From a virus (lineage: Duplodnaviria > Heunggongvirae > Uroviricota > Caudoviricetes): DNA of 20,256 nt. Below are positions 1,428-20,256 of this stretch, piece by piece. The position numbers and the translations under genes were made by a program. The notes under the pieces are model-generated. The model was not told the origin of the DNA and searched no databases. It saw nothing but the letters and a program-made list of their open reading frames with translations. The DNA lies in IMG/VR virus record IMGVR_UViG_2671180606_000002. One strand, written 5' to 3'. Every line of letters begins with the position of its first letter. Position 1 is the stretch's first letter.

Positions 1428-1443
1428 ACAGCCTTGCTTTATG

Positions 1444-1478: not shown

Positions 1479-1564
1479 ACGGAGGTGTTGCTGGTAAAGT
1501 TAGGTATTGGATCAATGAGTGAGTCAACATAATATTAAACTCACAATTATAAATCAGCCATATA

Positions 1565-3022: not shown

Positions 3023-3159
3023 ATCTAAATATTCTTTCAATTATAACCACCTTGCTGCAATATTATGATTATACTGTATAAAATTTAACTCCTCTTAGAT
3101 CTTACTTCACTGTTCCTTATGAAACAATCATCAAAATGAATCATATTGTAGTTAAGATT

Positions 3160-4097: not shown

Positions 4098-4100
4098 TAA

Positions 4101-4442
4101 TTACTCCTTATGGGCACCGAACTTGTTACCGATGACCCTCATTGCCGCACCACGAATAGCATCAACACCAATCAGCCCCACCCCACCACCAATGGCAACA
4201 GAAAGTGATTTAGGCCATCCGACATACTCAAGCGCGGATGCAAAGGTCAGCGTCAGAGCACCACAAAGCAGAATCTCAAGCGTTTTTCGTTTCCAGCCGC
4301 CGCCACCGCCAAAATAGGCAATGCGCAAACCAGCCATAATAATTGACATAACCACTGCACCCAGCGGCGTATCTCCACGCCACCAACTTTGTAAGAGTTC
4401 CAGTAAGTCAGGCCAGGAATGAGGGGCATTGTGCATTTTCAT
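4101..4442 (-). CDS. Class I holin with dual-start (M-K-M) motif
   Basis: Three hydrophobic segments; immediately upstream of endolysin; ATG codons at 4442 and 4436 encode MKM as in lambda S107/S105; GGAGGTGA Shine-Dalgarno upstream; six-frame ORF extends to a GTG at 4451. Confidence 0.8.
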   Translation of the reverse strand: MKMHNAPHSWPDLLELLQSWWRGDTPLGAVVMSIIMAGLRIAYFGGGGGWKRKTLEILLCGALTLTFASALEYVGWPKSLSVAIGGGVGLIGVDAIRGAAMRVIGNKFGAHKE

Positions 4443-4535
4443 AAGCCTCACCTCCGAGAGTTCGGATGGTGCTAAGTGTAAGATTCAGGCTCTCAGGCTT
4501 GCTAACAAGAAGTCGAGGATGTTTCCGGAGCCTAA

Positions 4536-4564
4536 CAACGAAAAAGCCCCGGGACATGCCGGGG
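4536..4564 (-). terminator. Rho-independent terminator between the moron gene and the holin gene
   Basis: GC hairpin CCCCGG-GACATG-CCGGGG (4547..4564); on the minus strand it is followed by CTTTTTCGTTGTT. Confidence 0.5.
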
Positions 4565-4659
4565 TCAGATGGAGTGCCAGATTAAGCTTCTGGCGGTATA
4601 TACTCGTGTTTGATATCGTTAAATCGCCAAAAGTAACAATTCAAACAAAGAGGATTTTT

Positions 4660-4821
4660 ATGTCTGAAAAAAACAAGCCACAAGATGAAAATAAACCTCA
4701 GCAACCCGTGGCACCAAAACCAACTCCAACACAAAGTACTACAGACTTTGCTACACGTCGTGTTTTTGTTGGAGATTCTGCCGACTCAGTCATTGAACAT
4801 ATAAAAAAACAGCCGAGATAA
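4660..4821 (+). CDS. Hypothetical small protein (53 aa, Pro/Gln-rich N-terminus), convergent with and overlapping the 3-prime end of the moron gene
   Basis: ATG at 4660 preceded by AAAGAGGA at good spacing; hydrophilic low-complexity product MSEKNKPQDENKPQQPVAPKPTPTQS...; no homology recognised, could be spurious. Confidence 0.3.
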   Translation: MSEKNKPQDENKPQQPVAPKPTPTQSTTDFATRRVFVGDSADSVIEHIKKQPR

Positions 4822-5359
4822 ACATCGCCGCTACCGGAGCAAGGATGGTATACATCCTTGCTTTATCGAGACTCGTGCGGATTTTCTCATTTTCCAACAG
4901 TAACTCTCTTGCTGTATCACTCAAGTCAACAAGGCGATACCTTCGTATAAGCGGCAATAACTTATCAGGTCCTAAATATCCTGCATCAGCGAATATTTTA
5001 AAGCTCGAGGGCTCCATATCCTTATATTTTTCATGATATAGATGATCAGGAGGGGCATTGATCAGGCCCCTAACCTTCACAGATAAACCAGTACATACCA
5101 AGTAAATGGCGCACCATGTCCATAGTAATGTAAATGTGGTAATTCCGGCGGTGAGAAAATCGAAATTAGTTTTCTGTGTCAGCAATAAAAAAGATGAACC
5201 AATTCCAACAATCTGAATGTTCAGAAGTTTGTATCCATTCTCAACATTGGTTTTGTTAGAAAGATGAATCTCTCGTATCGTCTCTTCCCCTTGTTTTTCA
5301 AGATAATCGACGAGCTCATCATCTACTCCTAAAAAATAATCTTTAGGTAGTTCTCTCAT
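4790..5359 (-). CDS. Membrane protein of unknown function in the Q-to-holin moron slot
   Basis: 189-aa ORF, ATG at 5359 with GGAGGTGA Shine-Dalgarno; at least two central transmembrane segments plus a hydrophobic C-terminus; low GC; bracketed by terminator hairpins at 5465..5497 and 4536..4564. Confidence 0.75.
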   Translation of the reverse strand: MRELPKDYFLGVDDELVDYLEKQGEETIREIHLSNKTNVENGYKLLNIQIVGIGSSFLLLTQKTNFDFLTAGITTFTLLWTWCAIYLVCTGLSVKVRGLINAPPDHLYHEKYKDMEPSSFKIFADAGYLGPDKLLPLIRRYRLVDLSDTARELLLENEKIRTSLDKARMYTILAPVAAMFISAVFLYVQ

Positions 5360-5380
5360 CTCACCTCCACATCCTGTACT

Positions 5381-5400
5381 GAAAACAATTTTACCAGAAT
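5381..5400 (-). promoter_or_regulatory. Candidate extended -10 promoter (TGGTAAAAT) for the moron gene
   Basis: Minus-strand TGGTAAAAT at 5396..5388, about 30 nt upstream of the ATG at 5359 and downstream of the tR-prime-like terminator; no good -35, so weak call. Confidence 0.3.
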
Positions 5401-5464
5401 GTCTCGATTCTAGGTATTCCGCCAGGAATCGCGCTCCAGAAATGAAACATCAGGTTCGCCAGTA

Positions 5465-5497
5465 CCAGAAACAACAAAACCCGCTCAATGGCGGGTT
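5465..5497 (-). terminator. Rho-independent terminator downstream of the Q-like gene (tR-prime-like position)
   Basis: Minus-strand ACCCGC-CATTGA-GCGGGT hairpin followed by TTTGTTGTTT; lies between the Q-like gene and the lysis region as lambda tR-prime does. Confidence 0.55.
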
Positions 5498-5580
5498 CTG
5501 GTAAAGTTCATGCGCTTGGTTCGCCTCGCGATACAGCTTTGCGAAGCATACCGGAATTGAAGCAGTTTATGCGTAAAAAA

Positions 5581-6123
5581 TCAAGCTATTTTTTGAGCAA
5601 ATGATTCTCGCATGGGAATATATAGGGCATACTCAGCAACAGCCAACCAATTAGCAATTCGCTTTTCGCATGTGCTAAAACACCACTCAGGATGTGCATC
5701 ATTTAGCAATTCAGCCATTTTGCGCTTAGTCATCCCCCGTCCTTCATACCGTTGCCGGAGGACACTAATCAATCCAGGATGCTCTGCCAGCACCTCACTT
5801 ATGACTCTATCAATACATAACGCCTCTGCATCAGTACAATGCGCCAGCCAGGTCTTTTGCTTGCCATTGATCATCTCTCGCAAAAACGCTTCCAGCTCAG
5901 GTTTCTCTATTCCCGCTTTTTTCATCCTGCGCAGGGCTTCATTGACGGCTGTTTTCGTCAATTTTTTGGATGCCAGCAACTGGTTAAACATATTTCCCGT
6001 CTTACCGCCGCCAATATACGACCAGCGCCCCCACATGCGCAGTTTTCCCTGAATCCAGACACTTTCCAGCGTGGTGAGACGAAGGTGTTCCCCGCTTTTG
6101 CCTGTATTTGTTGGGTAAATCAT
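5581..6123 (-). CDS. Putative late-gene antiterminator (Q-like), assigned mainly by position
   Basis: 180-aa product from ATG at 6123 (MIYPTNTGKSGEHL...), GAAAGGAAGG Shine-Dalgarno, start overlaps upstream stop (ATGA); Cys/His-containing C-terminus; last gene before the terminator and lysis cassette; family not confirmed. Confidence 0.55.
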   Translation of the reverse strand: MIYPTNTGKSGEHLRLTTLESVWIQGKLRMWGRWSYIGGGKTGNMFNQLLASKKLTKTAVNEALRRMKKAGIEKPELEAFLREMINGKQKTWLAHCTDAEALCIDRVISEVLAEHPGLISVLRQRYEGRGMTKRKMAELLNDAHPEWCFSTCEKRIANWLAVAEYALYIPMRESFAQKIA

Positions 6124-6410
6124 AAATAACCTTCCTTTCTCCAGATTTCTTGTGTGCGAAAAACACCTTCTGCATGCATCAGGCGTAATTCTTCTTTGGT
6201 GTAATCGCTGGTTTTTACCCGCCCGTCGATTAAATCGTGGCATGAGCTACAGGCAATCGCTGCCTGCATATCGTGTGGTTTTGTCGCTGTTCCGCACGTC
6301 CCCGCCAGCCTGTAATGCGCCAGCACAGAGGTTTCGGGATTGTGATTGCAGTAGCCAGGGATTCTGATCTGGCACATCTGGCCTTTAGCCGCTTTACGTA
6401 AATTCACCAT
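6120..6410 (-). CDS. YbcO-like phage protein (DUF1364, putative nuclease)
   Basis: 96-aa ORF with Cys-rich pattern LRKAAKGQMCQIRIPGYCNHNPETSVLAHYRL..GTATKPHD..ACSSCHD resembling DLP12 YbcO; translationally coupled on both sides. Confidence 0.8.
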   Translation of the reverse strand: MVNLRKAAKGQMCQIRIPGYCNHNPETSVLAHYRLAGTCGTATKPHDMQAAIACSSCHDLIDGRVKTSDYTKEELRLMHAEGVFRTQEIWRKEGYL

Positions 6411-7009
6411 TACGCAAACTCCAGTAGTTGTGCGGCCACATTTTCAACTTCCTCCTGAGAGGAGAATTTACGGAACAGAATCCAGTTCCACAGCACATTC
6501 AGAACAGATTTATAAACCTGCTGAAACTCGGTTTCGTCCATATTCGCAAACGCGATGGATTTCGCCCTGCGCCCACGGCTACCGTCCGGATAAATATGCT
6601 CGGTGTAAAATCCGGCCTGAATGGTTACCCACTCGCGGAAAGCCTCAAACGACTTTAGCAATGCCGTATCCCGAGTTCTGCGTGTCGCAACTGTATTTAG
6701 ATATTGCTCTGCGGCATCACTCAGGGCTGGTGTGTGTTCCCGACCAACTGATTCGCACAAGTAATCCACGAAACCAGACAGCAGTTCTCGTTCGCGAGGT
6801 GTGATCGCCCCACCGACCGGAGTCCAGTAATCGAATCCCAGTTGCAGGAGTTTGAAAAAACGCTTGTGGAATGCGTAGTTACGCACACGCTTAAAGTCTG
6901 CGTGTATCCACTCACCTATTTTGATTTGATGCAGAAAATCGCAACTCTCCGGCGTCGCCGGGAGAAGTAAACCAGAAGAGGTTTGTTTGACCAGTTGTAT
7001 ATGCGCCAT
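6410..7009 (-). CDS. Phage nin-region protein, DUF1367-like
   Basis: 199-aa ORF with ATG at 7009; one-nucleotide start/stop overlap with the YbcO-like gene; family assignment from memory of the conserved N-terminal LVKxxSGLLLPATPE block. Confidence 0.65.
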   Translation of the reverse strand: MAHIQLVKQTSSGLLLPATPESCDFLHQIKIGEWIHADFKRVRNYAFHKRFFKLLQLGFDYWTPVGGAITPRERELLSGFVDYLCESVGREHTPALSDAAEQYLNTVATRRTRDTALLKSFEAFREWVTIQAGFYTEHIYPDGSRGRRAKSIAFANMDETEFQQVYKSVLNVLWNWILFRKFSSQEEVENVAAQLLEFA

Positions 7010-7289
7010 TTCTCAATCTCTCGATGGCGCAGCGCAGCAGATGCCAGTTGTTCAGGCTGACGAATAAAGTATAAATAAACTGGCTATGGTGTAAAGCCCC
7101 ACATAGCATGAACAAACACTACATATCAAATAGCTGGTACAAGGATAGAAATACGACATTTATTATTAAAAACGATTAGATAAATTACATTTTAATGTTA
7201 TGCAAAAGTTCTTTTTTATCATAACATTTCAATAAAAGCATTACAGATGCAATCATCCCGTCATCATCAATTATTTAAGGTGGTTAAAC

Positions 7290-7376
7290 ATGGAAAATAA
7301 CAAGTTCGCACATCTCGCTCCTTTTTTATCCGTAATCCTTTTCGCTTGTTGTTTTATATGGGCATTATTTTTATAA
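7290..7376 (+). CDS. Candidate small hydrophobic peptide (28 aa) in the AT-rich spacer
   Basis: ATG at 7290 preceded by AAGGTGG; product MENNKFAHLAPFLSVILFACCFIWALFL has a charged N-terminus and one predicted transmembrane helix, the shape of small membrane proteins or type I toxins; no homology recognised. Confidence 0.3.
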   Translation: MENNKFAHLAPFLSVILFACCFIWALFL

Positions 7377-7450
7377 AGTAGCCACATGATAAGTTGCTGG
7401 AATCATATTTCCCACTCAAGTCATTAACATTTGATAAGATATATCTAAAA

Positions 7451-7509
7451 GGACACCTTTACATTATTTATGTGTATATAATTTATTTATATACACAGTA
7501 AAGGTATCC
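7451..7509. repeat. Long imperfect palindrome with a perfect 10-bp core inverted repeat (TGTGTATATA-N7-TATATACACA)
   Basis: Core arms at 7471..7480 and 7488..7497 are exact reverse complements; outer arms GGACACCTTTAC (7451..7462) and GTAAAGGTATCC (7498..7509) pair with one mismatch. Confidence 0.6.
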
Positions 7510-7776
7510 TGGGAAAATATTTATCGTTAAAAAATACATCATAAATAATTAAGCTGAAATTTCAGAACACAACTAATACACACAATAAGGTTCAGTAACA
7601 ATAATCTATGTGGACTACATCGAGATTTTTTGATTAAACTTTAATAACTTATTCCTAACACACAGAATGCATAAACTAAAAGTAAAACAAATAGTTATAC
7701 GAAAAACAACCATATTTATTATATCTTCTCCTCTAATCAACATATCAATTATGTGTTTCATAACAGCTTGACATAA

Positions 7777-7815
7777 CCCTCAAAAACACGCATTTATAAT
7801 GCATGTTTTTGAGGG
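7777..7815. promoter_or_regulatory. NsrR-box-like palindrome over the -10 and ribosome-binding region of the yeaR-like gene
   Basis: 17-bp inverted arms CCCTCAAAAACACGCAT / ATGCATGTTTTTGAGGG (one mismatch) around TTATA; core AACACGCATTT-A-TAATGCATGTT (7785..7807) matches my recalled 11-1-11 NsrR consensus with about 2 mismatches; TATAAT at 7795..7800; TTGACA at 7768..7773 is 21 bp upstream. Confidence 0.45.
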
Positions 7816-7822
7816 GGTGGTT

Positions 7823-8161
7823 ATGACACACAAGAGAATTCCTAAAGATTGGGTAATCAAACGCTCAACTCCGTTCTTCACAAAAGAGAACGTACCTTCA
7901 GCGTTATTAACACATCATAATACAGCAGCAGGTGTTTTTGGGCAGTTGTGCGTAATGGAAGGCACTGTAACATATTATGGTTTTACTGATGAGAATGCTA
8001 CTGAACCGGAGATAAAAGTAGTCATTAATGCTGGCGCTTTTGCAACAAGCCCACCACAATACTGGCACCGTGTTGAACTAAGCGATGATGCTCAGTTTAA
8101 TATTAACTTTTGGGTCGCTCCAGACTTCTCGGGCGAAAAAGTCTATAGCACCAAAAAATAG
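7823..8161 (+). CDS. YeaR-like protein (DUF1971, TehB N-terminal-like domain)
   Basis: 112-aa product from ATG at 7823 (GAGGGGGTGG Shine-Dalgarno); conserved blocks RSTPFF..P......H.T..G....L.V..G.V.Y.G..DE...EP.......AG.FA..PP..WH.......D..FNI.F.VAP align by eye to E. coli YeaR. Confidence 0.8.
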   Translation: MTHKRIPKDWVIKRSTPFFTKENVPSALLTHHNTAAGVFGQLCVMEGTVTYYGFTDENATEPEIKVVINAGAFATSPPQYWHRVELSDDAQFNINFWVAPDFSGEKVYSTKK

Positions 8162-8190
8162 ATGATCATATTAAAAATGCTTTAACAGTC

Positions 8191-8228
8191 AGACCCGGCA
8201 GGGCTATCCCCGACGGGTCTCATTTTTG
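8191..8228 (+). terminator. Rho-independent terminator after the yeaR-like gene
   Basis: AGACCCG...CGGGTCT hairpin (8191..8220) followed by CATTTTTG, 30 nt after the stop codon. Confidence 0.55.
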
Positions 8229-8923
8229 TAAATATATTGGTTCTACATTGACAGGAGACTTCAACCATAAGAAGTAATCTGAATACTTGAGCAATAAATT
8301 TACTTAAGATTAATGAGCGCACCTTGCCGGACAAAGATAAACCAAGGTAACACCTTTTTTCTAGCCAGTATGTAATCAATCAGAAAGCCGCTCCATAAGA
8401 ACAACAGCAAGACAATAAATTGCCATTACAGCCGCAATAGCCAGCGCACATTTGAGAACCAGCACGACAACCCCCTGTATTAGACGCACACCAGTCCTGA
8501 TAAATATGAGGCTGTCTCGTCAGTGATTCAATACAACTATTGGGTATAGTTTCTGTGATTTTATTCTGTAGAAATGGAACACAACAACCAGTCACCACCA
8601 GCACTTCTTTAAATACGCCAAGTCCGACGCAAGCTAACCTTCTAGTCCGCTTTGAGCGAAAAGCGGACAGGAACATTCTGGTTAATAGATATCAATGCTA
8701 ACAAAAAAGCTCCCGATGGAGATTTTGAAACCGCTTCCACATAATGAAATAAAAGGATTTATTTCTGGTCATGCCCACACATTGACCACGTCGAAGTAAG
8801 TAGCTCCGCTTCGCGGAGTTACTTAAGATAATTTCTATGTAGTTCCATGCTATGATTTAATTTTCAAGTTACAAAATCTAAATCTACAAATGTCCATTTG
8901 GGTGTAAAATTACACAATCCTAT

Positions 8924-11297
<2,374 letters not shown>

Positions 11298-11369
11298 AGG
11301 ATTAATCCAAAATAAAGACCTTGTTGACTAAACCCTCATGTACAAAATGCACACTTACTCAAAAGGATC

Positions 11370-11390
11370 TGGAGGCAATCTCGACCTCCA
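11370..11390. promoter_or_regulatory. Perfect inverted repeat TGGAGG-N9-CCTCCA in the divergent intergenic region between the deaminase gene and the TetR-like gene
   Basis: Exact 6-bp arms with 9-bp spacer; positioned like an operator in a divergent regulator/operon arrangement; function not established. Confidence 0.3.
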
Positions 11391-11550
11391 TGATTTAGTT
11401 CCTAGGGATAAGCAGAAATCTAGCACTGGATTAAAATTTAAAAATAATAATCAATAGGTTATAATGGTTTTTATTCGCATCCATGGGATCTGCTGCTGCC
11501 CGCATGATGTTGGATGCGACGGCGCTGGCACGACCTCACCCGGTGAAACG

Positions 11551-11996
11551 ATGAAACGCGAAAGGGTTGTTCTTCGGGAAGGTGCAGTTGGACTTTCAAT
11601 CGATGACGTTGCAAAAGAGGCTGGCGTCAGTAAGGCAACGGTAATGTACGATCATAAGTCAAAGCAAGATTTGCTCAGCGATCTCATCAGTCGCCTTATG
11701 CCAGTAGAGGAGGAACGTGTTCAGCAAGCGATAGCGGAAAGTAATAATACCCCCACATCCCGCACTCTATGGGCGAATTATTTCAGCCAGTAATGCTCTC
11801 AGTCATACTGAGAGAGCAGTAGTGCTGGCGGTCAGCGAATCGTTAACTAACGATACGAATATCAGGGACACCATGCGTTCCTGCACAAACAAAGATTTGG
11901 ATGAGATAAAAAGAGGACCAAAACCAGACGTTGCCGTCCTGGTATATTTGGCGTTATCTGGTATCTACTGCCAAGAATTTTTTGATTTTTACAAAT
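11551..11996 (+). pseudogene. TetR-family transcriptional regulator, disrupted by frameshift (N-terminal HTH 11551..11793; C-terminal remainder continues in +1 frame to about 11996)
   Basis: N-terminal frame has a TetR-type HTH (LSIDDVAKEAGVSKATVMYDHKSKQDLL) and stops after 80 aa; the next frame continues ALSHTERAVVLAVSESLTNDT...LVYLALSGIYCQEFFDFYK without its own start; TATAAT at 11460..11465 upstream. Confidence 0.55.
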
Positions 11997-12271
11997 GATC
12001 TCCTGGCGAGCGAGATAAAATTATCGAAGGCATTCGCTGTTTGTATGAATCATACCCTTACAAGTCTGAATAAATAATGTCTCCGGGAATGACATTTCAT
12101 GTGCGACTAATTCGCGATATTCCTATACGTAAAGGTCCGCTTTTGGCACAAAGTGGACAACCACGCTAGCTCTACCCTGTGCCACAAAATGTCAATTTGC
12201 ATCTGAACTAATGCACTTTAATCTCGTCACTTCAATAAATACCGAACATCCCCCTGATAAAACGACAATAT

Positions 12272-12649
12272 TCACTGCATAACTTCACTCTTCAGGCACT
12301 CGCGACAGATTATGTTCAGACGCCTGTCGTAACGGCGTATTTCTCCGTCTGGTAATGACCAGATAAGGTCAGGATCAACCACAACCGGTTTCTTCACCTT
12401 TGTCCTTGATAGTTTTTTGCGGGCGTTTTGCCAGTCTTTACGCGCCTGCTCAGACGGGAATAATCCGTAGCCTGAATTGTAAACATCACCACTGGCGACT
12501 AGTTCTCTGGCGAGAGTGCTTATGTAATACCTTGATGCACCGGTTTTAGCCTCCAGAGCCCGTAACGTCTCGCGACCGCTCAGAGGTACAAGTTCAACAA
12601 CCTGTCCTTTAATTTTTTCTCGCTCTTCTGGTGTAAATACTTTTGCCAT
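12272..12649 (-). CDS. Hypothetical phage protein (125 aa)
   Basis: ATG at 12649 with GGAGG 7 nt upstream (MAKVFTPEEREK...); six-frame ORF extends to a TTG at 12664; basic C-terminal part; no family recognised. Confidence 0.6.
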   Translation of the reverse strand: MAKVFTPEEREKIKGQVVELVPLSGRETLRALEAKTGASRYYISTLARELVASGDVYNSGYGLFPSEQARKDWQNARKKLSRTKVKKPVVVDPDLIWSLPDGEIRRYDRRLNIICRECLKSEVMQ

Positions 12650-12664
12650 AGGTGCCTCCGGCAA

Positions 12665-13426
12665 TCACTTTTCCGATGCAACATGGCGGGAAGAATCAGT
12701 AATCTGTCGTACAATATCCCTGTGCTTGTTCAACTCACGCAGCGCGGCGCAGACACGCTCCCACTTCTGGACATGATTTTTCGCCCGACGCAGTTCGCGG
12801 TTTGCCATATGCAGTGATGGTAAAACCAGGTCATCCGCTCGCGTTTCAGTAAACGATGGCAGCGACTGCACAATGTCCGCCACAGTTTCTGTTTTAATAT
12901 CTTCCTGTGTTGCAGCCTCCTGTACTGGTAACGCAACACCTGCGGTCTGAGGAAAGGCCTTACCATCAGTTTCCGCTACCGATGCTGCTTTCGGCTCTGC
13001 TGGTAAATTATCGCCCGGTATGCAGTAACGAAATTTACCGCCCTGATTTACGCGAATCAGACGACCTTTGCTGATTGCCATTGCCAGCGTTGAAGCCACT
13101 TTGCGTGATGTGGTACCAAACAATGTAGCCAGCTCATCAGCCGTTTGTGGTCCTCGTTGTTCAATCGTCGCGGTTAAATCGCACTCTGAGATTTTCGCTA
13201 CTGTTGCTGTGGTGATTTCTTCCGGCAGTTCTGCCTGCGCTGGCTGTTCCTGCTGAACATTGTTATCAGCCACACGCCAGGTGTACGCGCTTTTATCAAC
13301 AAAACCAGCCTTTTTCAGTTCCCATAGTTCGTTCAGCACTTCTTCACGACTGATATCAAGTCGCGCAGCAAGTTCTATGGATGTGGCTTTTCCCATTGCT
13401 TTCAGTGCGTCAAAAACAGTCTCCAT
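12665..13426 (-). CDS. Phage protein with N-terminal winged-helix-like domain (possibly the full-length counterpart of Rac pseudogene YdaW)
   Basis: Start chosen at ATG 13426 ([43 protein letters not shown]...) with GGGAGA upstream; the longer ORF to 13477 would overlap the DnaC-like gene by 29 nt; acidic/Ala-Thr-rich linker. Confidence 0.65.
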
Positions 13427-13448
13427 TAAATTTTTCTCCCGGTAAAAA

Positions 13449-14195
13449 TTACTTCGCAATTCCTGGCTGGACGACATTCGGACGCCAGCTCTCCCAGTTA
13501 AAATTCACCCATCGCCCGCCGTTCATGGTCATGCGATCCATAATCCGCTCGCCGAGCAATGTTTTCATGGCCTCATAGTTCAGGTTTGTCAGCATCCCCA
13601 CGCTGCGCATCGACGCTGTCCGGCGATCAACAATCTGGTGCAGTACCACCTGCTCGTTTTTCGTCTCGCGCTGAATGCCAATTTCATCAAGAACCAGCAG
13701 ATCCACTTCGCACAGTTCCCGCAAAAATTTTTCGCCTGACTGCCCATCGTCATAGCTGGCGTGCAGGGCACTCATAACATCAGCCACGGTAACCACAATC
13801 ACTGTCTGACCGTCTTTCAGCAGGCGATTCCCGATAGCTGCCGCTAAGTGGTTCTTCCCGGTACCAGGTTTTCCGCTGAACGCAAAATTTGTACACCCGG
13901 TCATCAGTTCATCAGCGATGGATTTCGCCTGACTCAACGCGTATCGCTGCCCTTCGTTCTGCACCTGGTAATTCGAAAACGAGCATTTGCGGTGCAATGG
14001 CTGGATGCCAGAGCGATTCAGAATTTTTTCCACCCGCAACTGACGATTCTGACGGTTGATCTCCTCACAACGTTTCTGGCCTTCGGAAAGTTGCCACTCG
14101 CGCCACTCCGCTACCGTCTTGAATGGCGCGGTTACATGTGACGGGGCCAGTCTGCGGATACGTTCAAGAACATCGCCTGTCGCAATATTTTTCAT
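13449..14195 (-). CDS. ydaV: DnaC/IstB-like AAA+ helicase-loader (replication protein, YdaV-like)
   Basis: 248-aa ORF with Walker [16 protein letters not shown] and Walker [10 protein letters not shown]; ATG at 14195; follows the initiator-like gene as in lambdoid O-P modules. Confidence 0.9.
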
Positions 14196-14201
14196 GGTCA
14201 G

Positions 14202-15059
14202 TTACCCCCTGAAGCCTGGCGGGATCGCACTATCCGGTAACGAGACGGTGTTAACCTGTCGGAGTAACGTCTCAGGTCGAACACCTTTCGGCGCGAACAA
14301 GCCCTGGTATTCATTGGCGATGCTGTGTCGAATCACCTGCTCAGGTGAAAAACCCTGCTGGCGGAATTTTTCCAGCTCCCGTATCGCCCCGTTAGCGCCC
14401 TGCTCCGTTCGAATCGGTTTTCGCAATGCCTGGCGAAATTCAACCCACTCACGCCAAAGCGAGACAGAAATCCAGTTCGGCAAAGTAATATCCAGAGGGT
14501 CAAACTTTTTGACACCTCGATTCCCCCGGGGGGGATTTAGGGGGGGATCTGTTTTTAGATCTTTATCTGTATCTTTATTAGTTGCCTTTGTGTTGACATC
14601 ATGTTCAAACACCACTTCAACATCTGTTTGAACACCTGTTAAATTTCTCTCTTGTTTTGTTTGAACATCTGCTTCCTTTCTGCTTCTTCTGGCCTGAACA
14701 GATGCTTTTCCTGCGGCTGATTTTTTGGTTAATTTTTCCCTGACTGATGCCAGATCTTCCTCAATCCGAAGATGCACCCATTCCTCGCCGTTATCGCAAA
14801 AAAACTCCTGCAAGGATGGTTCAACATCAGCCCATCGCTCGTTAGTCAGACGGGCAATTTTTGCCAGCCTGTTTTTAGGTATTGGCTTTCCTGTTTGCCA
14901 GTAATTGAACATCAGCAACAAATACGCACCATGCTCCTCTGCTGACAAATGCATGGTGTCAGCCAGGTAATCAGCTATGTACAGTTGCATGTATGGTAAT
15001 GCGGCCATAATTGCCCCGTATGATGCTGCCCGGTGGCTTAGAATAAGCACAAACAGCAT
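14202..15059 (-). CDS. ydaU: Phage replication initiation/organiser protein (YdaU-like, DUF1376)
   Basis: 285-aa ORF, same length as recalled Rac YdaU; N-terminal YLADTMHLSAEEHGAYLLLMFNYW block; central charged KDTDKDLK repeat region encoded by iteron-like DNA. Confidence 0.8.
   Translation of the reverse strand: MLFVLILSHRAASYGAIMAALPYMQLYIADYLADTMHLSAEEHGAYLLLMFNYWQTGKPIPKNRLAKIARLTNERWADVEPSLQEFFCDNGEEWVHLRIEEDLASVREKLTKKSAAGKASVQARRSRKEADVQTKQERNLTGVQTDVEVVFEHDVNTKATNKDTDKDLKTDPPLNPPRGNRGVKKFDPLDITLPNWISVSLWREWVEFRQALRKPIRTEQGANGAIRELEKFRQQGFSPEQVIRHSIANEYQGLFAPKGVRPETLLRQVNTVSLPDSAIPPGFRG
14595..14709. repeat. Cluster of four iteron-like elements (core TGTT[C/T][A/G]AACA / CATCTG) inside the ydaU-like gene; candidate replication origin
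   Basis: ACATCATGTTCAAACACC, AACATCTGTTTGAACACC, TGTTTGAACATCTGC and CTGAACAGATGC within about 115 bp, next to AT-rich sequence; analogous to the lambda ori iterons inside gene O. Confidence 0.4.
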
Positions 15060-15071
15060 GGAAACTTTTGC

Positions 15072-15377
15072 TTAATGAACAATGACAGAATCGTCGGAAG
15101 AACCGCCGCCGCTGAAATGCGCTTTCCGGTAAACGGCTTGGACTGCATCATCATGCGCATCAATTGCCGTACTTAACGCTTCCTGCGCCGCCAGTAATGC
15201 ACGGCGTTCCAGGGTATCGAAGATGCAGAGTCGGTGACGCAGCTCGCGCGGAAGGATTGCCAGAATTGCTGGGATCAGCTTCTGAATTTTTTCTCTTTGC
15301 GTTTTCGTTTCACCTTTCAACCAACGGTGATAGATATTCTGCTGATTGTTCCAGTCCTTGCCTGGAACCAGGGGCAA
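15072..15377 (-). pseudogene. YdaT-like C-terminal fragment lacking an ATG start (only TTG at 15377)
   Basis: 101-aa frame with no internal Met, predicted helical C-terminus; sits immediately upstream of ydaU-like where Rac has ydaT (recalled as 140 aa); the expected upstream Cro-like and repressor genes are absent. Confidence 0.4.
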
Positions 15378-15480
15378 TTCGCCGCCCCCCTGGCGCAGAT
15401 ATTCTTCAGTAATTGCATTGGCTACCCATGCCTGCCCTTTTTCGGCTGCTAGGGCACCCGGCGTTAAGGGGAGAGATAAG

Positions 15481-15615
15481 ATGGTGCATTACGAAGTAGT
15501 TCAGTATTTGATGGATTGTTGCGGTATCACTTACAACCAGGCTGTGCAGGCTTTACGCAGCAACGACTGGGATCTCTGGCAGGCAGAAGTCGCTATACGT
15601 AGCAACAAGATGTGA
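15481..15615 (+). CDS. ydaG: Small Rac-type early-left protein (YdaG-like, 44 aa)
   Basis: ATG at 15481 with AAGGGGAGAG Shine-Dalgarno; product MVHYEVVQYLMDCCGITYNQAVQALRSNDWDLWQAEVAIRSNKM; size and position match Rac ydaG. Confidence 0.6.
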   Translation: MVHYEVVQYLMDCCGITYNQAVQALRSNDWDLWQAEVAIRSNKM

Positions 15616-15625
15616 GATTCGCAAA

Positions 15626-15781
15626 ATGCAAAAAATCGACCTCGGCAACAACGAATCCCTGGTGTGCGGCGTGTTCCCCAACCAGGATGGAACGTTCACT
15701 GCCATGACGTATACCAAAAGCAAAACATTTAAAACCGAAACTGGTGCGCGCCGATGGTTGGAGAAGCACACAGTAAGCTAA
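15626..15781 (+). CDS. ydaF: Small Rac-type early-left protein (YdaF/YdfA-like, 51 aa)
   Basis: ATG at 15626, 51-aa product MQKIDLGNNESLVCGVFPNQDGTFTAMTYTKSKTF...; 3-prime end overlaps sieB stop convergently by 4 nt; size and position match Rac ydaF. Confidence 0.6.
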   Translation: MQKIDLGNNESLVCGVFPNQDGTFTAMTYTKSKTFKTETGARRWLEKHTVS

Positions 15782-16266
15782 CGATTAAAACGTCTACTCC
15801 TGCTGTTCCAGAATAACTTCATAAAATGGGAGTATTTTTCGGTGACGAGATAATAAGAACAGTTTGCGCTATCACTCTGATGTTGAATGATGCCCTTCCG
15901 TTCTAATTTTTTCATAACCGGGTTACGGCAAGGAGAAGTGATAATAAGATTTCCTGTTTTAAGGAAATCTTTAAATACAGCGATTTCTTTCTCAGATAAA
16001 CGAAGCAATACTCGTTGCTCTGGTAGTAATGAATAATGCTTTTGAATATGTGCTCGCAATCTTGAGAAGGAAATGGCGACCACGAAAGAAAAGGCAAAAA
16101 CGATAATCTGAAAGAGCCAAGGTATTTCAGTATAAGCATTGAATGCGACAGTAAACTCTTTCGGTATCAGCCAGAGAGTGAGACCAAAAATGATAATCGT
16201 ATACATAAGTCTTTCGAGTGGCTCGTTAGCAAAAAGTTTCAACAATGGAGTAAATACATCCAACAT
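15778..16266 (-). CDS. sieB: Superinfection exclusion protein B
   Basis: 162-aa membrane protein from ATG at 16266 (MLDVFTPLLKLFANEPLERLMYTIIIFGLTLWLIPKEF...); opposite orientation to neighbours as in Rac and lambda; the six-frame ORF has a 41-codon upstream extension lacking support. Confidence 0.85.
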   Translation of the reverse strand: MLDVFTPLLKLFANEPLERLMYTIIIFGLTLWLIPKEFTVAFNAYTEIPWLFQIIVFAFSFVVAISFSRLRAHIQKHYSLLPEQRVLLRLSEKEIAVFKDFLKTGNLIITSPCRNPVMKKLERKGIIQHQSDSANCSYYLVTEKYSHFMKLFWNSRSRRFNR

Positions 16267-16484
16267 ATCAATAACTCTCAACTGTAAGGGTATTGAAATG
16301 TTAACACAAGCTCTCGCTGTAGGGGTATAGCCGAGACCACCGAAGCCCGGAGGTGGTGAAATAAAACCGGGCACAACACGAAGGCGCATTTCCGATATCC
16401 ATAAAGAGTCGGTCTTGTCTGTTAAATTTAAATGGTGGGAGTGCGCCTCCGGTTGTAAATAACGACATTGCTGTGTGTAGTCCT

Positions 16485-16532
16485 GGCGGCATCAGTTTTT
16501 TTCTTGAAGTTCGGCTGATGTCCGCCCTTTTT
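16485..16532 (+). terminator. Intrinsic-terminator-like hairpin upstream of kilR (early-left operon, tL-like)
   Basis: GGCGGCATCAG ... CTGATGTCCGCC imperfect inverted repeat followed by CTTTTTAAAG on the plus strand. Confidence 0.4.
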
Positions 16533-16707
16533 AAAGTGAATTTTGTGATGCGGTGAATGCGGCTAAGCGCACGTGGCACAGTTAAAAGTCATGTTAGTCC
16601 TTATTGGTTTGGGTGGGAAAGCCGACTGTAATTGTTAACTGGTTGCAGTCACCTGGAGGCACCAGACACCGCATCAACAAAGTTCATTTGTAAAAATGGA
16701 GATAATT

Positions 16708-16929
16708 ATGATTGCACATCACTTCGGAACTGATGAAATACCACGTCAGTGTGTGACTCCTGGCGATTATGTTCTTCATGAAGGCCGGACATATATTGCC
16801 TCGGCAAACAATATTAAAAAGCGAAAACTATATATTCGTAACCTGACCACAAAAACATTCATTACTGACCGCATGATTAAAGTCTTCCTCGGTCGTGATG
16901 GTTTACCTGTAAAGGCGGAGTCATGGTGA
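16708..16929 (+). CDS. kilR: Cell-division inhibitor KilR (FtsZ inhibitor)
   Basis: 73-aa product [32 protein letters not shown]... from ATG at 16708 with GGAG upstream; matches Rac KilR in length and sequence as recalled. Confidence 0.85.
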
Positions 16930-17099
16930 TGACTAAGAAAATAAAATGTGCTTACCACCTTTGCAAAAAAGACGTTGAAGAAAGCAAAGCTATTGAAAGA
17001 ATGCTTCACTTCATGCACGGGATTTTATCAAAAGACGAACCGAGAAAATATTGCAGTGAAGCTTGTGCCGAAAAAGACCAGATGGCACATGAACTTTAA
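16929..17099 (+). CDS. ydaE: Rac prophage small Cys-rich protein YdaE
   Basis: 56-aa product [56 protein letters not shown]; ATG overlaps kilR stop (TGATG); not in the six-frame track because under 60 aa. Confidence 0.7.
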   Translation: MTKKIKCAYHLCKKDVEESKAIERMLHFMHGILSKDEPRKYCSEACAEKDQMAHEL

Positions 17100-17173
17100 T
17101 TAATTGACTATTCGAAACTGAATTTATGCCAGAAATGGCAGGTATTCGCTCAACCTTAATTAAGGAGAAAAAC

Positions 17174-17449
17174 ATGATTACCAATTATGAAGCCACTGTT
17201 GTAACTACCGATGACATTGTTCACGAGGTGAATCTGGAAGGAAAGCGCATTGGCTACGTAATTAAAACAGAAAATAAAGAAACCCCATTCACTGTGGTTG
17301 ATATCGATGGTCCATCAGGCAACGTAAAAACACTTGATGAAGGTGTCAAAAAAATGTGCCTGGTGCATATCGGAAAGAATCTGCCCGCAGAAAAAAAAGC
17401 CGAATTTCTGGCAACTCTAATTGCAATGAAATTAAAAGGTGAAATCTGA
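17174..17449 (+). CDS. racC: Rac prophage protein RacC
   Basis: 91-aa product from ATG at 17174 with AAGGAG Shine-Dalgarno (MITNYEATVVTTDDIVHEVNLEGKR...). Confidence 0.8.
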   Translation: MITNYEATVVTTDDIVHEVNLEGKRIGYVIKTENKETPFTVVDIDGPSGNVKTLDEGVKKMCLVHIGKNLPAEKKAEFLATLIAMKLKGEI

Positions 17450-17550
17450 AAGAAATAGCCTGCGTATGGCGCAGGCTATGAACAGTGTGTATCCGGCAAG
17501 ATCATTCACTGAACAAAACGAATTTTAATCTGAGTTGAGGTTAAAAAACA

Positions 17551-18000
17551 ATGAGCACAAAACCACTCTTCCTGTTACGGAAAGCGAAAAAATCATCCGG
17601 TGAACCTGACGTCGTCCTGTGGGCAAGCAACGATTTTGAATCGACCTGTGCCACTCTGGACTACCTGATCGTTAAGTCAGGTAAAAAACTGAGCAGCTAT
17701 TTTAAAGCTGTTGCCACGAATTTTCCTGTCGTTAATGACCTGCCCGCTGAAGGTGAGATCGATTTTACCTGGAGTGAACGCTATCAACTCAGCAAAGACT
17801 CCATGACATGGGAACTAAAACCGGGAGCAGCACCAGACAACGCTCACTATCAAGGCAATACCAACGTCAACGGCGAAGACATGACTGAGATTGAGGAGAA
17901 TATGCTACTCCCAATTTCTGGCCAGGAACTGCCCATTCGTTGGCTTGCTCAACACGGCAGCGAAAAACCGGTACCCACGTCTATGCTGTCGCAAGACTGA
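17551..18000 (+). pseudogene. recE: recE (exonuclease VIII) N-terminal remnant, about 141 native codons then out-of-frame tail
   Basis: Translation begins [46 protein letters not shown], the RecE N-terminus as recalled, and ends after [10 protein letters not shown]; RecE should be over 800 aa. Confidence 0.85.
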
Positions 18001-18272
18001 AAGACGGAGGTACTCAGTTTGAAGTTATGACGCGCAAACAGATTGAGCTGGTGCGCAGCCTGAGTAAAGCTGGTAATAACGGGCCGTGGGTAACTCACTG
18101 GGAAGAAATGGCAAAGAAAACGGCTATTCGTCGCCTGTTCAAATATCTGCCCGTATCAATTGAGATCCAGCGTGCAGTATCAATGGATGAAAAGGAACCA
18201 CTGACAATCGATCCTGCAGATTCCTCTGTATTAACCGGGGAATACAGTGTAATCGATAATTCAGAGGAATAA
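17974..18272 (+). pseudogene. recT: recT C-terminal remnant (about 98 codons) fused out of frame to the recE fragment
   Basis: +1 frame reads [66 protein letters not shown]...VIDNSEE, the RecT C-terminus as recalled; no RecT N-terminal 170 residues anywhere in window. Confidence 0.85.
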
Positions 18273-18328
18273 TTCAGCCTGGCGGTGTAATGCACCGCCA
18301 ACTTGAAATATTTTTTATGAGAAAAATT

Positions 18329-18523
18329 ATGAGATATGACAATGTTAAACCATGTCCATTTTGTGGTTGTCCATCAGTAACGGTGAAAGCCATTTCAGGA
18401 TATTACCGAGCGAAGTGTAACGGATGCGAATCCCGAACCGGTTATGGTGGAAGTGAAAAAGAAGCACTCGAAAGATGGAATAAACGAACCACTGGAAATA
18501 ATAATGGAGGTGTTCATGTATAA
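18329..18523 (+). CDS. ralR: Restriction alleviation protein RalR (Lar-like)
   Basis: 64-aa Cys-rich product MRYDNVKPCPFCGCPSVTVKAISGYYRAKCNGCESRTGYGG...; start chosen at ATG 18329 to match RalR length. Confidence 0.8.
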   Translation: MRYDNVKPCPFCGCPSVTVKAISGYYRAKCNGCESRTGYGGSEKEALERWNKRTTGNNNGGVHV

Positions 18524-18725
18524 AATTACCGCCACTATTGAAAAGGAAGGTGGCACTCCTACTAACTGGACAAGATATTCAAAATCTAAACTAACGAAAT
18601 CAGAATGCGAAAAAATGCTCTCAGGTAAAAAAGAAGCAGGCGTTTCCAGAGAGCAGAAAGTAAAACTGATAAATTTTAATTGCGAGAAACTTCAGTCCTC
18701 GAGAATTGCATTGTATTCAAATTAA
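18516..18725 (+). CDS. ydaC: Rac prophage protein YdaC
   Basis: 69-aa product from ATG at 18516 with GGAGGTG Shine-Dalgarno (MYKITATIEKEGGTPTNWTRYSK...); overlaps ralR stop. Confidence 0.75.
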   Translation: MYKITATIEKEGGTPTNWTRYSKSKLTKSECEKMLSGKKEAGVSREQKVKLINFNCEKLQSSRIALYSN

Positions 18726-18803
18726 AACTTCATAGCTGATTATTAATAATCAACATCGGGCGTCAATTTCAGTCTAACATTGGCGCCTGCCAGAGGTGAT
18801 GCG

Positions 18804-19019
18804 ATGGCACAAGTAATCTTTAATGAAGAGTGGATGGTTGAATACGGCCTGATGCTTCGCACTGGTCTGGGGGCCAGACAAATTGAAGCATACCGCCAGA
18901 ACTGTTGGGTGGAGGGCTTCCACTTCAAACGAGTATCTCCTTTAGGTAAGCCAGACAGCAAACGAGGGATTATCTGGTACAACTATCCAAAGATAAATCA
19001 GTTTATCAAAGACTCATGA
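18804..19019 (+). CDS. xisR: Excisionase (Xis)
   Basis: 71-aa product from ATG at 18804 with GAGGTGA Shine-Dalgarno ([32 protein letters not shown]...); immediately upstream of int. Confidence 0.8.
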
Positions 19020-19020
19020 T

Positions 19021-20256
19021 ATGTCTAAATTACCAACAGGTGTCGAGATTAGAGGTAGATACATTCGCATCTGGTTCATGTTTCGAGGAAAACGATGTCG
19101 GGAAACATTAAAAGGCTGGGAGATTACAAACAGTAATATTAAAAAGGCCGGAAATTTAAGAGCGCTGATAGTTCATGAAATAAACTCCGGTGAATTTGAG
19201 TATTTAAGACGTTTTCCCCAGTCCAGCACTGGGGCAAAAATGGTGACAACGAGAGTCATAAAAACGTTCGGAGAGCTTTGTGATATCTGGACAAAAATTA
19301 AAGAGACAGAGTTAACAACAAACACAATGAAGAAAACGAAATCACAATTAAAAACACTCAGAATAATAATTTGTGAAAGTACCCCGATATCACATATTCG
19401 TTATAGCGATATCTTAAACTACCGGAATGAACTGCTGCATGGAGAAACGCTTTACCTGGATAATCCAAGATCCAACAAAAAAGGAAGAACCGTGCGCACA
19501 GTTGATAACTATATCGCCCTGCTCTGTTCGCTGTTGCGTTTTGCGTATCAGTCGGGATTTATATCAACCAAACCATTTGAAGGAGTAAAAAAATTACAGC
19601 GAAACAGAATAAAGCCTGATCCGTTATCTAAAACAGAATTCAATGCATTAATGGAAAGTGAAAAAGGACAGAGCCAGAACTTGTGGAAATTTGCCGTTTA
19701 CTCAGGACTTCGTCACGGGGAACTGGCAGCTCTGGCGTGGGAGGATGTGGATCTCGAAAAGGGAATAGTGAATGTCAGAAGAAACCTGACGATACTTGAT
19801 ATGTTCGGTCCCCCAAAAACAAATGCCGGGATCCGAACAGTAACACTACTGCAGCCTGCTCTTGAAGCACTGAAGGAGCAATACAAACTGACCGGGCATC
19901 ATCGCAAAAGCGAAATCACCTTTTATCATCGGGAGTACGGCAGAACCGAAAAGCAAAAACTGCATTTTGTTTTCATGCCCAGGGTGTGTAACGGAAAACA
20001 AAAACCTTATTACTCGGTAAGCAGTTTGGGGGCAAGGTGGAATGCAGCAGTAAAACGTGCTGGTATTCGCCGCCGTAATCCGTACCATACGCGGCATACT
20101 TTTGCCTGCTGGCTGTTGACGGCAGGAGCGAACCCGGCATTTATAGCCAGCCAAATGGGGCATGAAACTGCGCAGATGGTGTATGAAATTTACGGTATGT
20201 GGATTGATGACATGAACGACGAACAGATAGCCATGTTGAATGCGCGGTTATCGTAG
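19021..20256 (+). CDS. intR: Tyrosine site-specific integrase
   Basis: 411-aa ORF; C-terminal catalytic region with conserved R (LRHGELAALAW), HxxR (HTRHTFACWLL) and catalytic Tyr region (VYEIYGMW); stop codon is the last triplet of the window. Confidence 0.95.
   Translation: MSKLPTGVEIRGRYIRIWFMFRGKRCRETLKGWEITNSNIKKAGNLRALIVHEINSGEFEYLRRFPQSSTGAKMVTTRVIKTFGELCDIWTKIKETELTTNTMKKTKSQLKTLRIIICESTPISHIRYSDILNYRNELLHGETLYLDNPRSNKKGRTVRTVDNYIALLCSLLRFAYQSGFISTKPFEGVKKLQRNRIKPDPLSKTEFNALMESEKGQSQNLWKFAVYSGLRHGELAALAWEDVDLEKGIVNVRRNLTILDMFGPPKTNAGIRTVTLLQPALEALKEQYKLTGHHRKSEITFYHREYGRTEKQKLHFVFMPRVCNGKQKPYYSVSSLGARWNAAVKRAGIRRRNPYHTRHTFACWLLTAGANPAFIASQMGHETAQMVYEIYGMWIDDMNDEQIAMLNARLS

What the first reader, a model, noticed from the sequence alone, without database searches (positions are those of the whole stretch)
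15072..15480. Immunity region appears deleted: no repressor or Cro-like gene between the replication module and ydaG
In Rac the order is ydaG - racR (repressor) - ydaS (Cro-like) - ydaT - ydaU. Here only about 100 bp separate the ydaG-like start from a start-less 101-aa YdaT-like frame, and no HTH-containing ORF exists in between on either strand. Established biology says racR is essential in K-12 only because it represses toxic ydaS/ydaT, so co-loss of racR with ydaS and the 5-prime part of ydaT would be the tolerated outcome. It leaves open what now represses the intact kilR (FtsZ inhibitor) early-left operon, perhaps a repressor of another resident prophage.
Basis: partly seen in the sequence, partly recalled or inferred. 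Interest (0 to 1): 0.55.

Follow-up and report, generated by a model that had tools for sequence, protein, structure and literature searches.

The report
Rac prophage immunity-switch deletion scar
This stretch is the scar of a 1,241-base deletion that removed the whole on/off switch of a Rac-type prophage in E. coli: the repressor, its Cro-like partner, and the promoters on both sides. This is an ordinary and already documented way for such a prophage to go silent, although the break lies at a site where several independent rearrangements also end.

Summary
Outside three deletion junctions the window is about 100% identical to Rac of E. coli K-12 and strain MS15047. At window 15455/15456 (2-bp "CA" microhomology) exactly 1,241 bp are missing. 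The lost DNA holds ydaT codons 1-13, ydaS, the racR-ydaS control region, racR, and 284 bp of the racR-ydaG spacer. No RacR or YdaS homologue and no HTH ORF remains in the window.

Its open question, what now represses kilR, has a simpler likely answer. The deleted spacer carries an 11/12 sigma-70 promoter facing ydaG and kilR, bracketed by two matches to the published RacR operator consensus. The early-left operon has therefore probably lost its promoter, so no repressor is needed. This step is inferred from motifs, not measured.

The exact junction is absent from 5,426 complete E. coli genomes but present in an independent read-archive assembly, so it is real. A second deletion disrupts recE and recT, fusing their remnants out of frame.

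One unexpected result: in 163 ydaG-bearing loci, all five distinct rearrangement classes (four deletions and one IS1 junction) break at the same nucleotide, 24 nt before the ydaG ATG. This looks like a recombination hot spot with no established mechanism.

Verdict: ordinary prophage decay, low novelty.

The parts
14202..15059 (-). ydaU (DUF1376, replication-module gene), intact
   Evidence: Pfam PF07120, E=2.7e-26. 100% identical to K-12 ydaU.
15072..15456 (-). ydaT remnant: codons 14-140 plus the stop codon and one base of codon 13. It has no start codon, no ribosome-binding site and no promoter of its own.
   Evidence: tblastn with K-12 YdaT: residues 14-140 at 100% identity, window 15455-15075. 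Translations. Pfam PF06254.
15455..15456 (.). Deletion junction: 'CA' microhomology shared by both reference flanks. 1,241 bp of K-12/MS15047 sequence (L001 4458-5698) are missing here.
15457..15480 (+). Last 24 nt of the early-left leader, including the GGGGAGAG ribosome-binding site of ydaG. Its 5' edge is the recurrent breakpoint.
15481..15615 (+). ydaG (44 aa, annotated 'phage protein' WP_000233809.1), intact; first gene of the early-left operon
   Evidence: Weak UBA-like Pfam hit.
15626..15781 (+). ydaF (DUF1391), intact
   Evidence: Pfam PF07151, E=1.9e-28.
15778..16389 (-). sieB (superinfection exclusion B), intact; the RefSeq start corresponds to window 16266
   Evidence: Pfam PF14163, E=3e-31.
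16708..16929 (+). kilR (FtsZ inhibitor), intact and identical to K-12
   Evidence: no differences in this block before window 17974.
17968..17980 (+). Junction of a second deletion (2,679 bp). It joins recE codon ~141 to recT codon ~170 out of frame, across an imperfect 13-bp homology.
   Evidence: ORFs 17551-18000 and 17940-18272.

Best explanation
Window 15072-15480 is the scar of a spontaneous 1,241-bp illegitimate-recombination deletion, with 2-bp 'CA' microhomology, in a Rac-type lambdoid prophage. The deletion removed the complete immunity switch:
- the repressor gene racR;
- the Cro-like gene ydaS;
- the divergent ydaST and racR promoters with operators O1-O3;
- the first 13 codons of the CII-like ydaT;
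- inferred: the PL-like early-left promoter with two RacR operators, plus about 145 nt of its leader.

Both early operons are therefore left without their native promoters. The toxic ydaS/ydaT functions are gone. The ydaG-ydaF-kilR-ydaE-racC-recE' operon is expected to be silent for lack of a promoter, not because a repressor acts on it. The remnant is a locked, non-inducible cryptic prophage that needs no repressor.

Shown: the deletion, its exact limits, and the absence of racR and ydaS. Inferred: the promoter and operator assignment in the racR-ydaG spacer, and hence the silence of kilR.
For: - Deletion limits: collinear blocks of 99.9-100% identity to K-12 and MS15047 flank a 1,241-bp gap. 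The lost features come from the RefSeq annotation.
- No RacR or YdaS homologue and no HTH ORF remains.
- The deleted spacer holds TTGACA-17-TATAGT (11/12) on the ydaG strand. It is flanked and overlapped by TTAGGCATAGCCTAT (0 mismatches) and TTAGGCATTACCTAT (1 mismatch) to the footprint-derived RacR operator consensus WTAGGC-n3-GCCTAW (PMC9638921). The only other matches in 10 kb of K-12 Rac are the three sites in the racR-ydaS control region.
- A heteroimmune Rac-like prophage (L004) has different sequence at this spot, with its own repeated AGTACATT motif. It becomes homologous to K-12 immediately downstream of the -10, as expected for an immunity-module boundary at PL.
- RacR depletion raises ydaG, ydaF, kilR, ydaE and racC 40-70-fold (PMC6765115; PMC11014345; bioRxiv 2026.09.06.749655).
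- The window has no operator match above chance and no + strand promoter-like site in 14900-16900.
- Co-loss of racR, the intergenic region and ydaS is the experimentally tolerated class and is seen in natural strains (PMC5700373).
- Both junctions occur exactly in an independent Logan assembly, SRR11849210 contig 19. The RecE' fusion ORF is on 3 contigs.
Against: - The PL/OL assignment rests on motif matches and comparative boundaries. The papers read here gave no transcription start site or RacR binding data for this spacer. PMC11014345 states that the RacR regulon is not characterised in detail.
- The promoter scan is a strict consensus scan and would miss weak or non-sigma-70 promoters.
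- Read-through into ydaG from antisense transcription of the replication genes, or an internal promoter before kilR, cannot be excluded.
- The K-12 racR-ydaS lab deletion was viable. If, as it seems, it left this promoter in place, removing PL is not strictly required for survival.
- Only one window of the genome is available, so a cross-acting repressor elsewhere cannot be ruled out.
Confidence: 0.82

Rival explanations
1. One reading: the early-left operon, including kilR, keeps a functional promoter and is held off by a cross-reacting repressor (RacR- or DicA-like) from another resident prophage.
For: kilR and its neighbours are intact. E. coli genomes commonly carry several lambdoid prophages: the conserved leader sequence occurs at about 86% identity in roughly 2,000 genomes. 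The rest of this genome is not visible.
Against: The only near-consensus promoter facing ydaG, and both operator-consensus sites, lie inside the deleted DNA. Nothing operator-like or promoter-like remains upstream of ydaG or kilR. A foreign repressor would have no site to bind.
Confidence: 0.08
2. Artefact: the missing 1.24 kb is an assembly or sequencing error, or an engineered laboratory deletion, not a natural allele.
For: The junction is absent from all 5,426 complete E. coli genomes and from genome, viral and metagenome contig scans. A few single-base differences from MS15047 lie in C-runs.
Against: The same two junctions are found exactly in an independently built Logan assembly. The unique RecE' fusion ORF is on 3 contigs. 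There is no repeat that could collapse an assembly, only 2 bp of homology. There is no FRT or cassette scar, and the ends are not at gene boundaries. Similar natural deletions exist in S3, GF4, PSS-07 and AP027537.
Confidence: 0.04
3. The junction is not neutral. sieB-strand transcription now runs into ydaT'-ydaU-ydaV, or the TTG-initiated 101-aa YdaT fragment is made. Either would give the remnant a new low-level activity: replication-protein expression or a truncated regulator.
For: sieB (- strand) is now followed on the same strand by the ydaT remnant, ydaU and ydaV, with no terminator-like site in 14900-16900. A G-run precedes the TTG at 15377. The same 101-aa ORF is called by gene finders in many genomes.
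Against: There is no evidence of such a transcript. The fragment lacks the N-terminal 39 residues, so part of the DNA-binding region is probably missing (the domain position is recalled from the abstract of PMC9986795, not read in detail). The ORF call in other genomes only reflects frameshifted ydaT alleles.
Confidence: 0.06

Closest known systems
Rac prophage immunity region of E. coli K-12 (racR / ydaS / ydaT; analogues of lambda cI / cro / cII)
   Same: The flanks are identical to K-12 and MS15047 Rac: ydaV-ydaU-ydaT' on one side and ydaG-ydaF-sieB-kilR-ydaE-racC-recE' on the other.
   Different: The switch itself is missing: racR, ydaS, operators O1-O3, both divergent promoters, the putative PL/OL, and ydaT codons 1-13.
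Tolerated racR-minus deletions described by Krishnamurthi et al. 2017 (PMC5700373)
   Same: racR is lost together with the racR-ydaS intergenic region and ydaS. A ydaT remnant persists without its promoter, and kilR is left intact. The paper reports both engineered deletions and 'a few strains' with this pattern.
   Different: This allele has its own breakpoints. It truncates ydaT and extends 284 bp beyond racR, through the putative early-left promoter. It is not present in 5,426 complete genomes.
Other natural Rac decay alleles: S3 (NZ_CP010228), GF4 (NZ_CP172217), SCU-172 (IS1 junction), PSS-07 (NZ_AP027673)
   Same: S3, GF4 and SCU-172 also lack racR and the spacer promoter, and share the same right breakpoint nucleotide. 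PSS-07 has a recE'-'recT deletion whose ends lie 7 and 27 bp from the window's.
   Different: The left ends differ: the DUF1627 gene (S3), a lysis gene (GF4), IS1 plus non-Rac DNA (SCU-172). PSS-07 keeps racR and instead deletes from ydaS' to ydaV'.
Lambda PL/OL organisation
   Same: In K-12 Rac, a strong promoter downstream of the repressor gene on the same strand is overlapped by repressor operators and drives the kil/recombination operon.
   Different: Only two clear operator matches were found. No N-like antiterminator is known here. In the window this element is entirely absent.

Membership tests
Rac-type prophage (E. coli, ttcA-side integration) | Synteny and near-identity with K-12/MS15047 Rac genes (trkG ... 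ydaV, ydaU, ydaG, ydaF, sieB, kilR, racC, recE, ralR, xisR, intR) | tested here: met
   About 100% identity over window 510-20256 in 3 blocks to MS15047.
Rac immunity module (racR-ydaS-ydaT) | racR repressor gene present | tested here: not met
   tblastn with RacR against the whole window: best E=0.69. The gene lies inside the 1,241-bp gap.
Rac immunity module (racR-ydaS-ydaT) | ydaS (Cro-like HTH) present, with the racR-ydaS intergenic operators O1-O3 | tested here: not met
   tblastn with YdaS: best E=0.78. The operator consensus gives no match above chance in the window, against 5 matches in K-12.
YdaT family (Pfam PF06254) | Significant match to the family profile | tested here: met
   E=6.1e-12, 46.3 bits against a cutoff of 21. 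100% identical to K-12 YdaT residues 14-140.
YdaT family (Pfam PF06254) | Complete, translatable gene (start codon, N-terminus, promoter) | tested here: not met
   Codons 1-13 are missing. There is no ATG, GTG or TTG between the upstream stop and the TTG at 15377. The ydaST promoter is deleted.
Lambdoid early-left promoter/operator (PL/OL analogue) | Sigma-70 promoter overlapped by repressor operators upstream of the kil/recombination operon | tested here: not met
   Present in K-12 at L001 5511-5553. Absent from the window. Function of the K-12 element was not tested experimentally.
Tolerated racR-loss class (PMC5700373) | Loss of racR accompanied by loss of ydaS and of the intergenic promoter that drives ydaS-ydaT | tested here: met
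   All three lie in the deleted interval L001 4458-5698.
Tolerated racR-loss class (PMC5700373) | The strain is viable and kilR is not expressed at toxic levels | not testable with these tools
   Needs growth and transcript data. Recovery of the allele in at least one independent assembly implies only viability.

The most novel reading that the evidence does not exclude
The right end of this deletion marks a discrete recombination hot spot in Rac-type prophages: K-12 ...TTCCGCCA|CCCGGCGTT..., 24 nt before the ydaG ATG.

In 163 ydaG-bearing loci, 153 keep the conserved motif GTTCCGC(N)ACCCGGCG. The other 10 fall into five distinct left-flank classes that look independent, and all break at this same nucleotide:
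- four deletions with left ends from 1.2 kb to more than 10 kb away, with 'CA' (in 3) or 'A' (in 1) at the junction;
- one IS1 whose end abuts CCCGGCGTT.

The site is the 3' base of a GC-rich hairpin (GGCGGGA-n24-TTCCGCC). It is also the inner edge of a 9-bp inverted repeat (AACGCCGGG...CCCGGCGTT).

A structure-induced replication stall followed by a template switch, or a site-specific break, could make this the preferred place where Rac-like prophages lose their immunity and replication modules during domestication.
Probability: 0.55. Interest if true: 0.45.

Novelty: already known. Interest (0 to 1): 0.25.

Why it matters
For the finding as stated, not much. It is one more natural example of the published rule that Rac can lose its repressor only together with the ydaS/ydaT functions that the repressor silences. 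It also shows that one small deletion can remove all three promoters of the switch and leave a prophage remnant that needs no repressor.

The practical value is for annotation. The 101-aa 'YdaT toxin' ORF here is a dead fragment. kilR, although intact, is probably not expressed. The prophage can no longer be induced by the RacR-depletion route described in K-12, which works through ydaS, or confer RacR-type immunity.

The by-product deserves a proper survey. Independent deletions and an IS1 insertion converge on one nucleotide in the early-left leader. If real, this would give a mechanistic handle on how lambdoid prophages are 'grounded'.

Tried and rejected
- Exact-junction scans (38-mer) of genome contigs, viral contigs and metagenome contigs found nothing. 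The junction was located only through the truncated-ORF look-ups.
- A context look-up for YdaG returned 10 places, all with intact immunity regions of several immunity types. It gave no further deletion alleles.
- I first took the fact that many genomes match the junction query only from position 200 as a sign of a mosaic boundary. I rejected this: it is an artefact of using the deleted window as the query. L004 is homologous to K-12 well upstream of the breakpoint.
- Rfam gave no family for the early-left leader. The RNA fold of the leader is not significantly more stable than shuffles (z=-1.8), nor is the DNA fold around the breakpoint (z=-0.8). The hairpin idea is therefore only a suggestion.
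- I considered one model for the shared right end: an ancestral IS1 insertion, then IS1-mediated adjacent deletion, then IS1 loss. I rejected it as the general explanation for three reasons. Three of the four IS-free junctions carry the 'CA' that matches the intact K-12 sequence. The C-run length at the junction (3 C) is that of the intact site, not IS1-end plus flank (5 C). And four exact IS1 excisions would be required.
- I considered that a replacement heteroimmune module sits in the interval. I rejected this because only 24 nt lie between the ydaT remnant and the ydaG ATG, and no ORF there has a family hit.

Full report
**1. What is in the sequence**

ORF listing and Pfam scans of window 12.5-18.5 kb show the Rac early region. 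On the - strand lie ydaV (IstB/DnaC-like), ydaU (DUF1376) and a YdaT-family frame. On the + strand lie a 44-aa gene (ydaG), ydaF (DUF1391), kilR and others, with sieB on the - strand between ydaF and kilR. Megablast of window 14000-17000 against 5,426 complete E. coli genomes gives 100% identity to K-12 strains. The match comes as two pieces that span 4,242 bp of the reference for 3,001 bp of query.

Direct BLAST against the K-12 locus (L001) and the closest complete genome, MS15047 (L002), fixes the difference. Window 12977-15456 equals L001 1978-4457, and window 15455-17980 equals L001 5697-8223. So 1,241 bp are missing, with a 2-bp overlap 'CA' at window 15455-15456.

The RefSeq annotation of both references places these features in the gap:
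- the first 38 nt of ydaT;
- ydaS;
- the 123-bp racR-ydaS intergenic region;
- racR;
- 284 of the 308 bp between racR and ydaG.

**2.

The YdaT-like frame is K-12 YdaT residues 14-140 at 100% identity. Upstream of the junction the frame runs 10 codons into former leader sequence and then meets a stop. No ATG, GTG or TTG occurs before the TTG at 15377, which is why the ORF finder reports 101 aa. Only 24 nt separate the remnant from the ydaG ATG at 15481.

None of the six ORFs scanned in 15038-15615 has an HTH or any other credible family hit at E<=1. tblastn with RacR and YdaS finds only noise anywhere in the 20-kb window. kilR is identical to K-12.

**3. Is the allele real, and how common is it?**

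A 400-bp query centred on the junction is not matched contiguously in any of the 5,426 complete genomes. The 38-mer junction is absent from the genome, viral and metagenome contig collections.

Two ORFs created or exposed by the deletions were then looked up: the 101-aa YdaT fragment and the 149-aa RecE' fusion. Both led to a Logan assembly of run SRR11849210 (contig 19, 137 kb), which contains both junctions exactly. The fusion ORF is recorded on three contigs.

This reproducibility argues against an assembly artefact. So do the absence of any repeat at the junction, the absence of a cassette scar, and the fact that the ends do not lie at gene boundaries. The allele is real but rare, and probably belongs to one lineage.

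**4. What the deletion removed besides the genes**

The published RacR operator consensus, derived from footprinting, is WTAGGC-n3-GCCTAW (PMC9638921). In 10 kb of K-12 Rac it matches five times (0.9 expected by chance). Three matches lie in the racR-ydaS control region. Two lie in the racR-ydaG spacer: TTAGGCATAGCCTAT at L001 5511-5525 and TTAGGCATTACCTAT at 5536-5550. Between and overlapping these two sites is TTGACA-17-TATAGT (11 of 12, L001 5525-5553) on the ydaG strand. This layout matches that of lambda PL/OL.

Two further observations support the assignment. A heteroimmune Rac-like prophage (strain 504838, L004) has a different repressor, a different Cro-like gene and different sequence at this spot, with its own repeated AGTACATT motif. 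It becomes homologous to K-12 immediately after the -10. Three studies also report that lowering RacR raises ydaG, ydaF, kilR, ydaE and racC by tens of fold.

All of this DNA lies inside the gap. The window has no operator match above chance and no + strand promoter-like site from ydaU to kilR. I therefore infer that the early-left operon lost its promoter with its repressor. The inference rests on motifs. The papers I read did not report a mapped start site or binding data for this spacer.

**5. Comparison with what is known**

Krishnamurthi et al. (PMC5700373) reported the following:
- racR cannot be deleted alone, even in a kilR deletion strain;
- the smallest viable deletion is racR plus the intergenic region plus ydaS;
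- a sieB-to-ydaU deletion leaves kilR intact without racR;
- among 154 genomes, ydaS never occurs without racR, while a few strains keep ydaT without racR and have then lost the intergenic region.

The window is a further example of that class. Jobling's letter and later work treat racR, ydaS and ydaT as analogues of cI, cro and cII. In those terms the window has lost its entire genetic switch. Expected consequences (inferred) are no induction or excision through YdaS, no RacR-type immunity, and silent kilR and int/xis. sieB may still be expressed from its own promoter.

**6. Other decay in the same prophage**

Relative to MS15047 the window carries two more differences:
- A 2,679-bp deletion joins recE codon ~141 to recT codon ~170 out of frame. 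It crosses an imperfect 13-bp homology at window 17968-17980.
- The 3' part of sitA abuts the prophage at about window 510, where MS15047 has terminase and other late genes.

Independent Rac alleles show that the same regions are hit repeatedly. PSS-07 deletes from ydaS' to ydaV' while keeping racR, and has a recE'-'recT deletion whose ends lie 7 and 27 bp from the window's. AP027537 joins recT' to ydaS'. Many genomes carry ydaT split by a frameshift.

**7. An unexpected regularity**

Strain S3 has a larger deletion, from the DUF1627 gene to upstream of ydaG. Its right end is the very same nucleotide as in the window. GF4 has a still larger one, starting in a lysis gene, with the same right end.

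I then collected loci carrying ydaG from IMG/VR and from earlier fetches, anchored inside ydaG so as not to bias the breakpoint. Of 163 loci with at least 330 nt upstream, 153 keep the conserved motif GTTCCGC(N)ACCCGGCG. The other 10 form five distinct left-flank classes, and every one breaks immediately 5' of CCCGGCGTTAAGG:
- window-type;
- S3-type;
- GF4-type;
- L099, another left end in the lysis region;
- an IS1 whose terminal ...GCATCACC abuts CCCGGCGTT.

Three complete genomes have the IS1 junction. In SCU-172 the IS1 separates sit-side DNA from ydaG, which is the pattern expected of an IS1-mediated adjacent deletion.

With about 170 nt of leader available, five independent events at one position cannot be chance. 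Selection cannot act at single-nucleotide resolution. The junctions carry 'CA' (three cases) or 'A' (one case), matching the intact ...GCCA|CCCGG. This favours direct microhomology joining over loss of an ancestral IS1.

The site is the 3' base of a hairpin (GGCGGGA-n24-TTCCGCC) and the inner edge of a 9-bp inverted repeat. However, the folds are not statistically unusual. I record this as an unexplained hot spot with a candidate mechanism. It is not a finding about function.

**8. Verdict**

The suggestion of a trans-acting foreign repressor is unnecessary, because the operon's promoter and operators most likely went with the deletion. The phenomenon is already described in kind, so novelty and interest are low. 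The recurrent breakpoint is the only element that might repay further work.

Noticed in passing
window 15456|15457 (K-12 L001 5698|5699); loci L003, L007, L073, L074, L083, L094, L099, L122, L174: Five distinct rearrangement classes that look independent (four deletions with different left ends, and one IS1 junction) all break at the same nucleotide, 24 nt before the ydaG ATG. None of 163 surveyed loci breaks elsewhere in the 330 nt upstream. This is a probable recombination or insertion hot spot at the base of a conserved GC-rich hairpin.
   Followed up: partly
window 17968-17980 (ORFs 17551-18000 and 17940-18272): A second deletion of 2,679 bp fuses recE codon ~141 to recT codon ~170 out of frame, across an imperfect 13-bp homology. 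Strain PSS-07 has an independent recE'-'recT deletion whose ends lie only 7 and 27 bp away.
   Followed up: partly
window 1-513: The window starts in the 3' part of sitA (iron/manganese transporter). sitA abuts the ParB-like prophage gene where MS15047 has terminase and other late genes, so the prophage's late region appears to be missing as well.
   Followed up: partly
window 16472-16527 (+) and 16529-16715 (+): Between sieB and kilR there is a DicF-like hairpin RNA match below Rfam's gathering score (39.1 bits against 48, E=2e-6), followed by a weak STnc100-like match. Both are identical in K-12 Rac.
   Followed up: no
window 8924-11297 (-) and 11464-11793 (+): A cargo cluster encodes a SIR2-domain protein (ThsA-like SIR2, PADLOC E=9e-32), a non-canonical NTP pyrophosphatase, and an adenosine deaminase (CARF-ADA-like deaminase domain, E=7e-36). 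This is a possible anti-phage defence module. The adjacent TetR/AcrR gene is truncated to 109 aa by an extra C in a C-run at window 11750 relative to MS15047. A 109-aa TetR ORF is also called in the Logan assembly.
   Followed up: partly
K-12 L001 5599-5714 (deleted in the window except for its last 16 nt): The early-left leader downstream of the putative PL is conserved at about 86% identity in roughly 2,000 other E. coli genomes, with no annotated feature and with homology ending at the ribosome-binding site of the first gene. It has no Rfam match. It could be a conserved regulatory RNA, for example an antitermination element of lambdoid prophages.
   Followed up: no
loci L020-L029 (e.g. CP010152.1, CP147423.1): Many assemblies (343 index blocks) carry ydaT split into 58-aa and 101-aa ORFs, apparently by a frameshift, usually with racR and ydaS still present. 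This seems to be a second common route to inactivating ydaT.
   Followed up: no
window 18522-18700 (-): The RalA antitoxin sRNA (Rfam RF02694, 225 bits) is present and intact opposite ralR. This is a known feature.
   Followed up: yes
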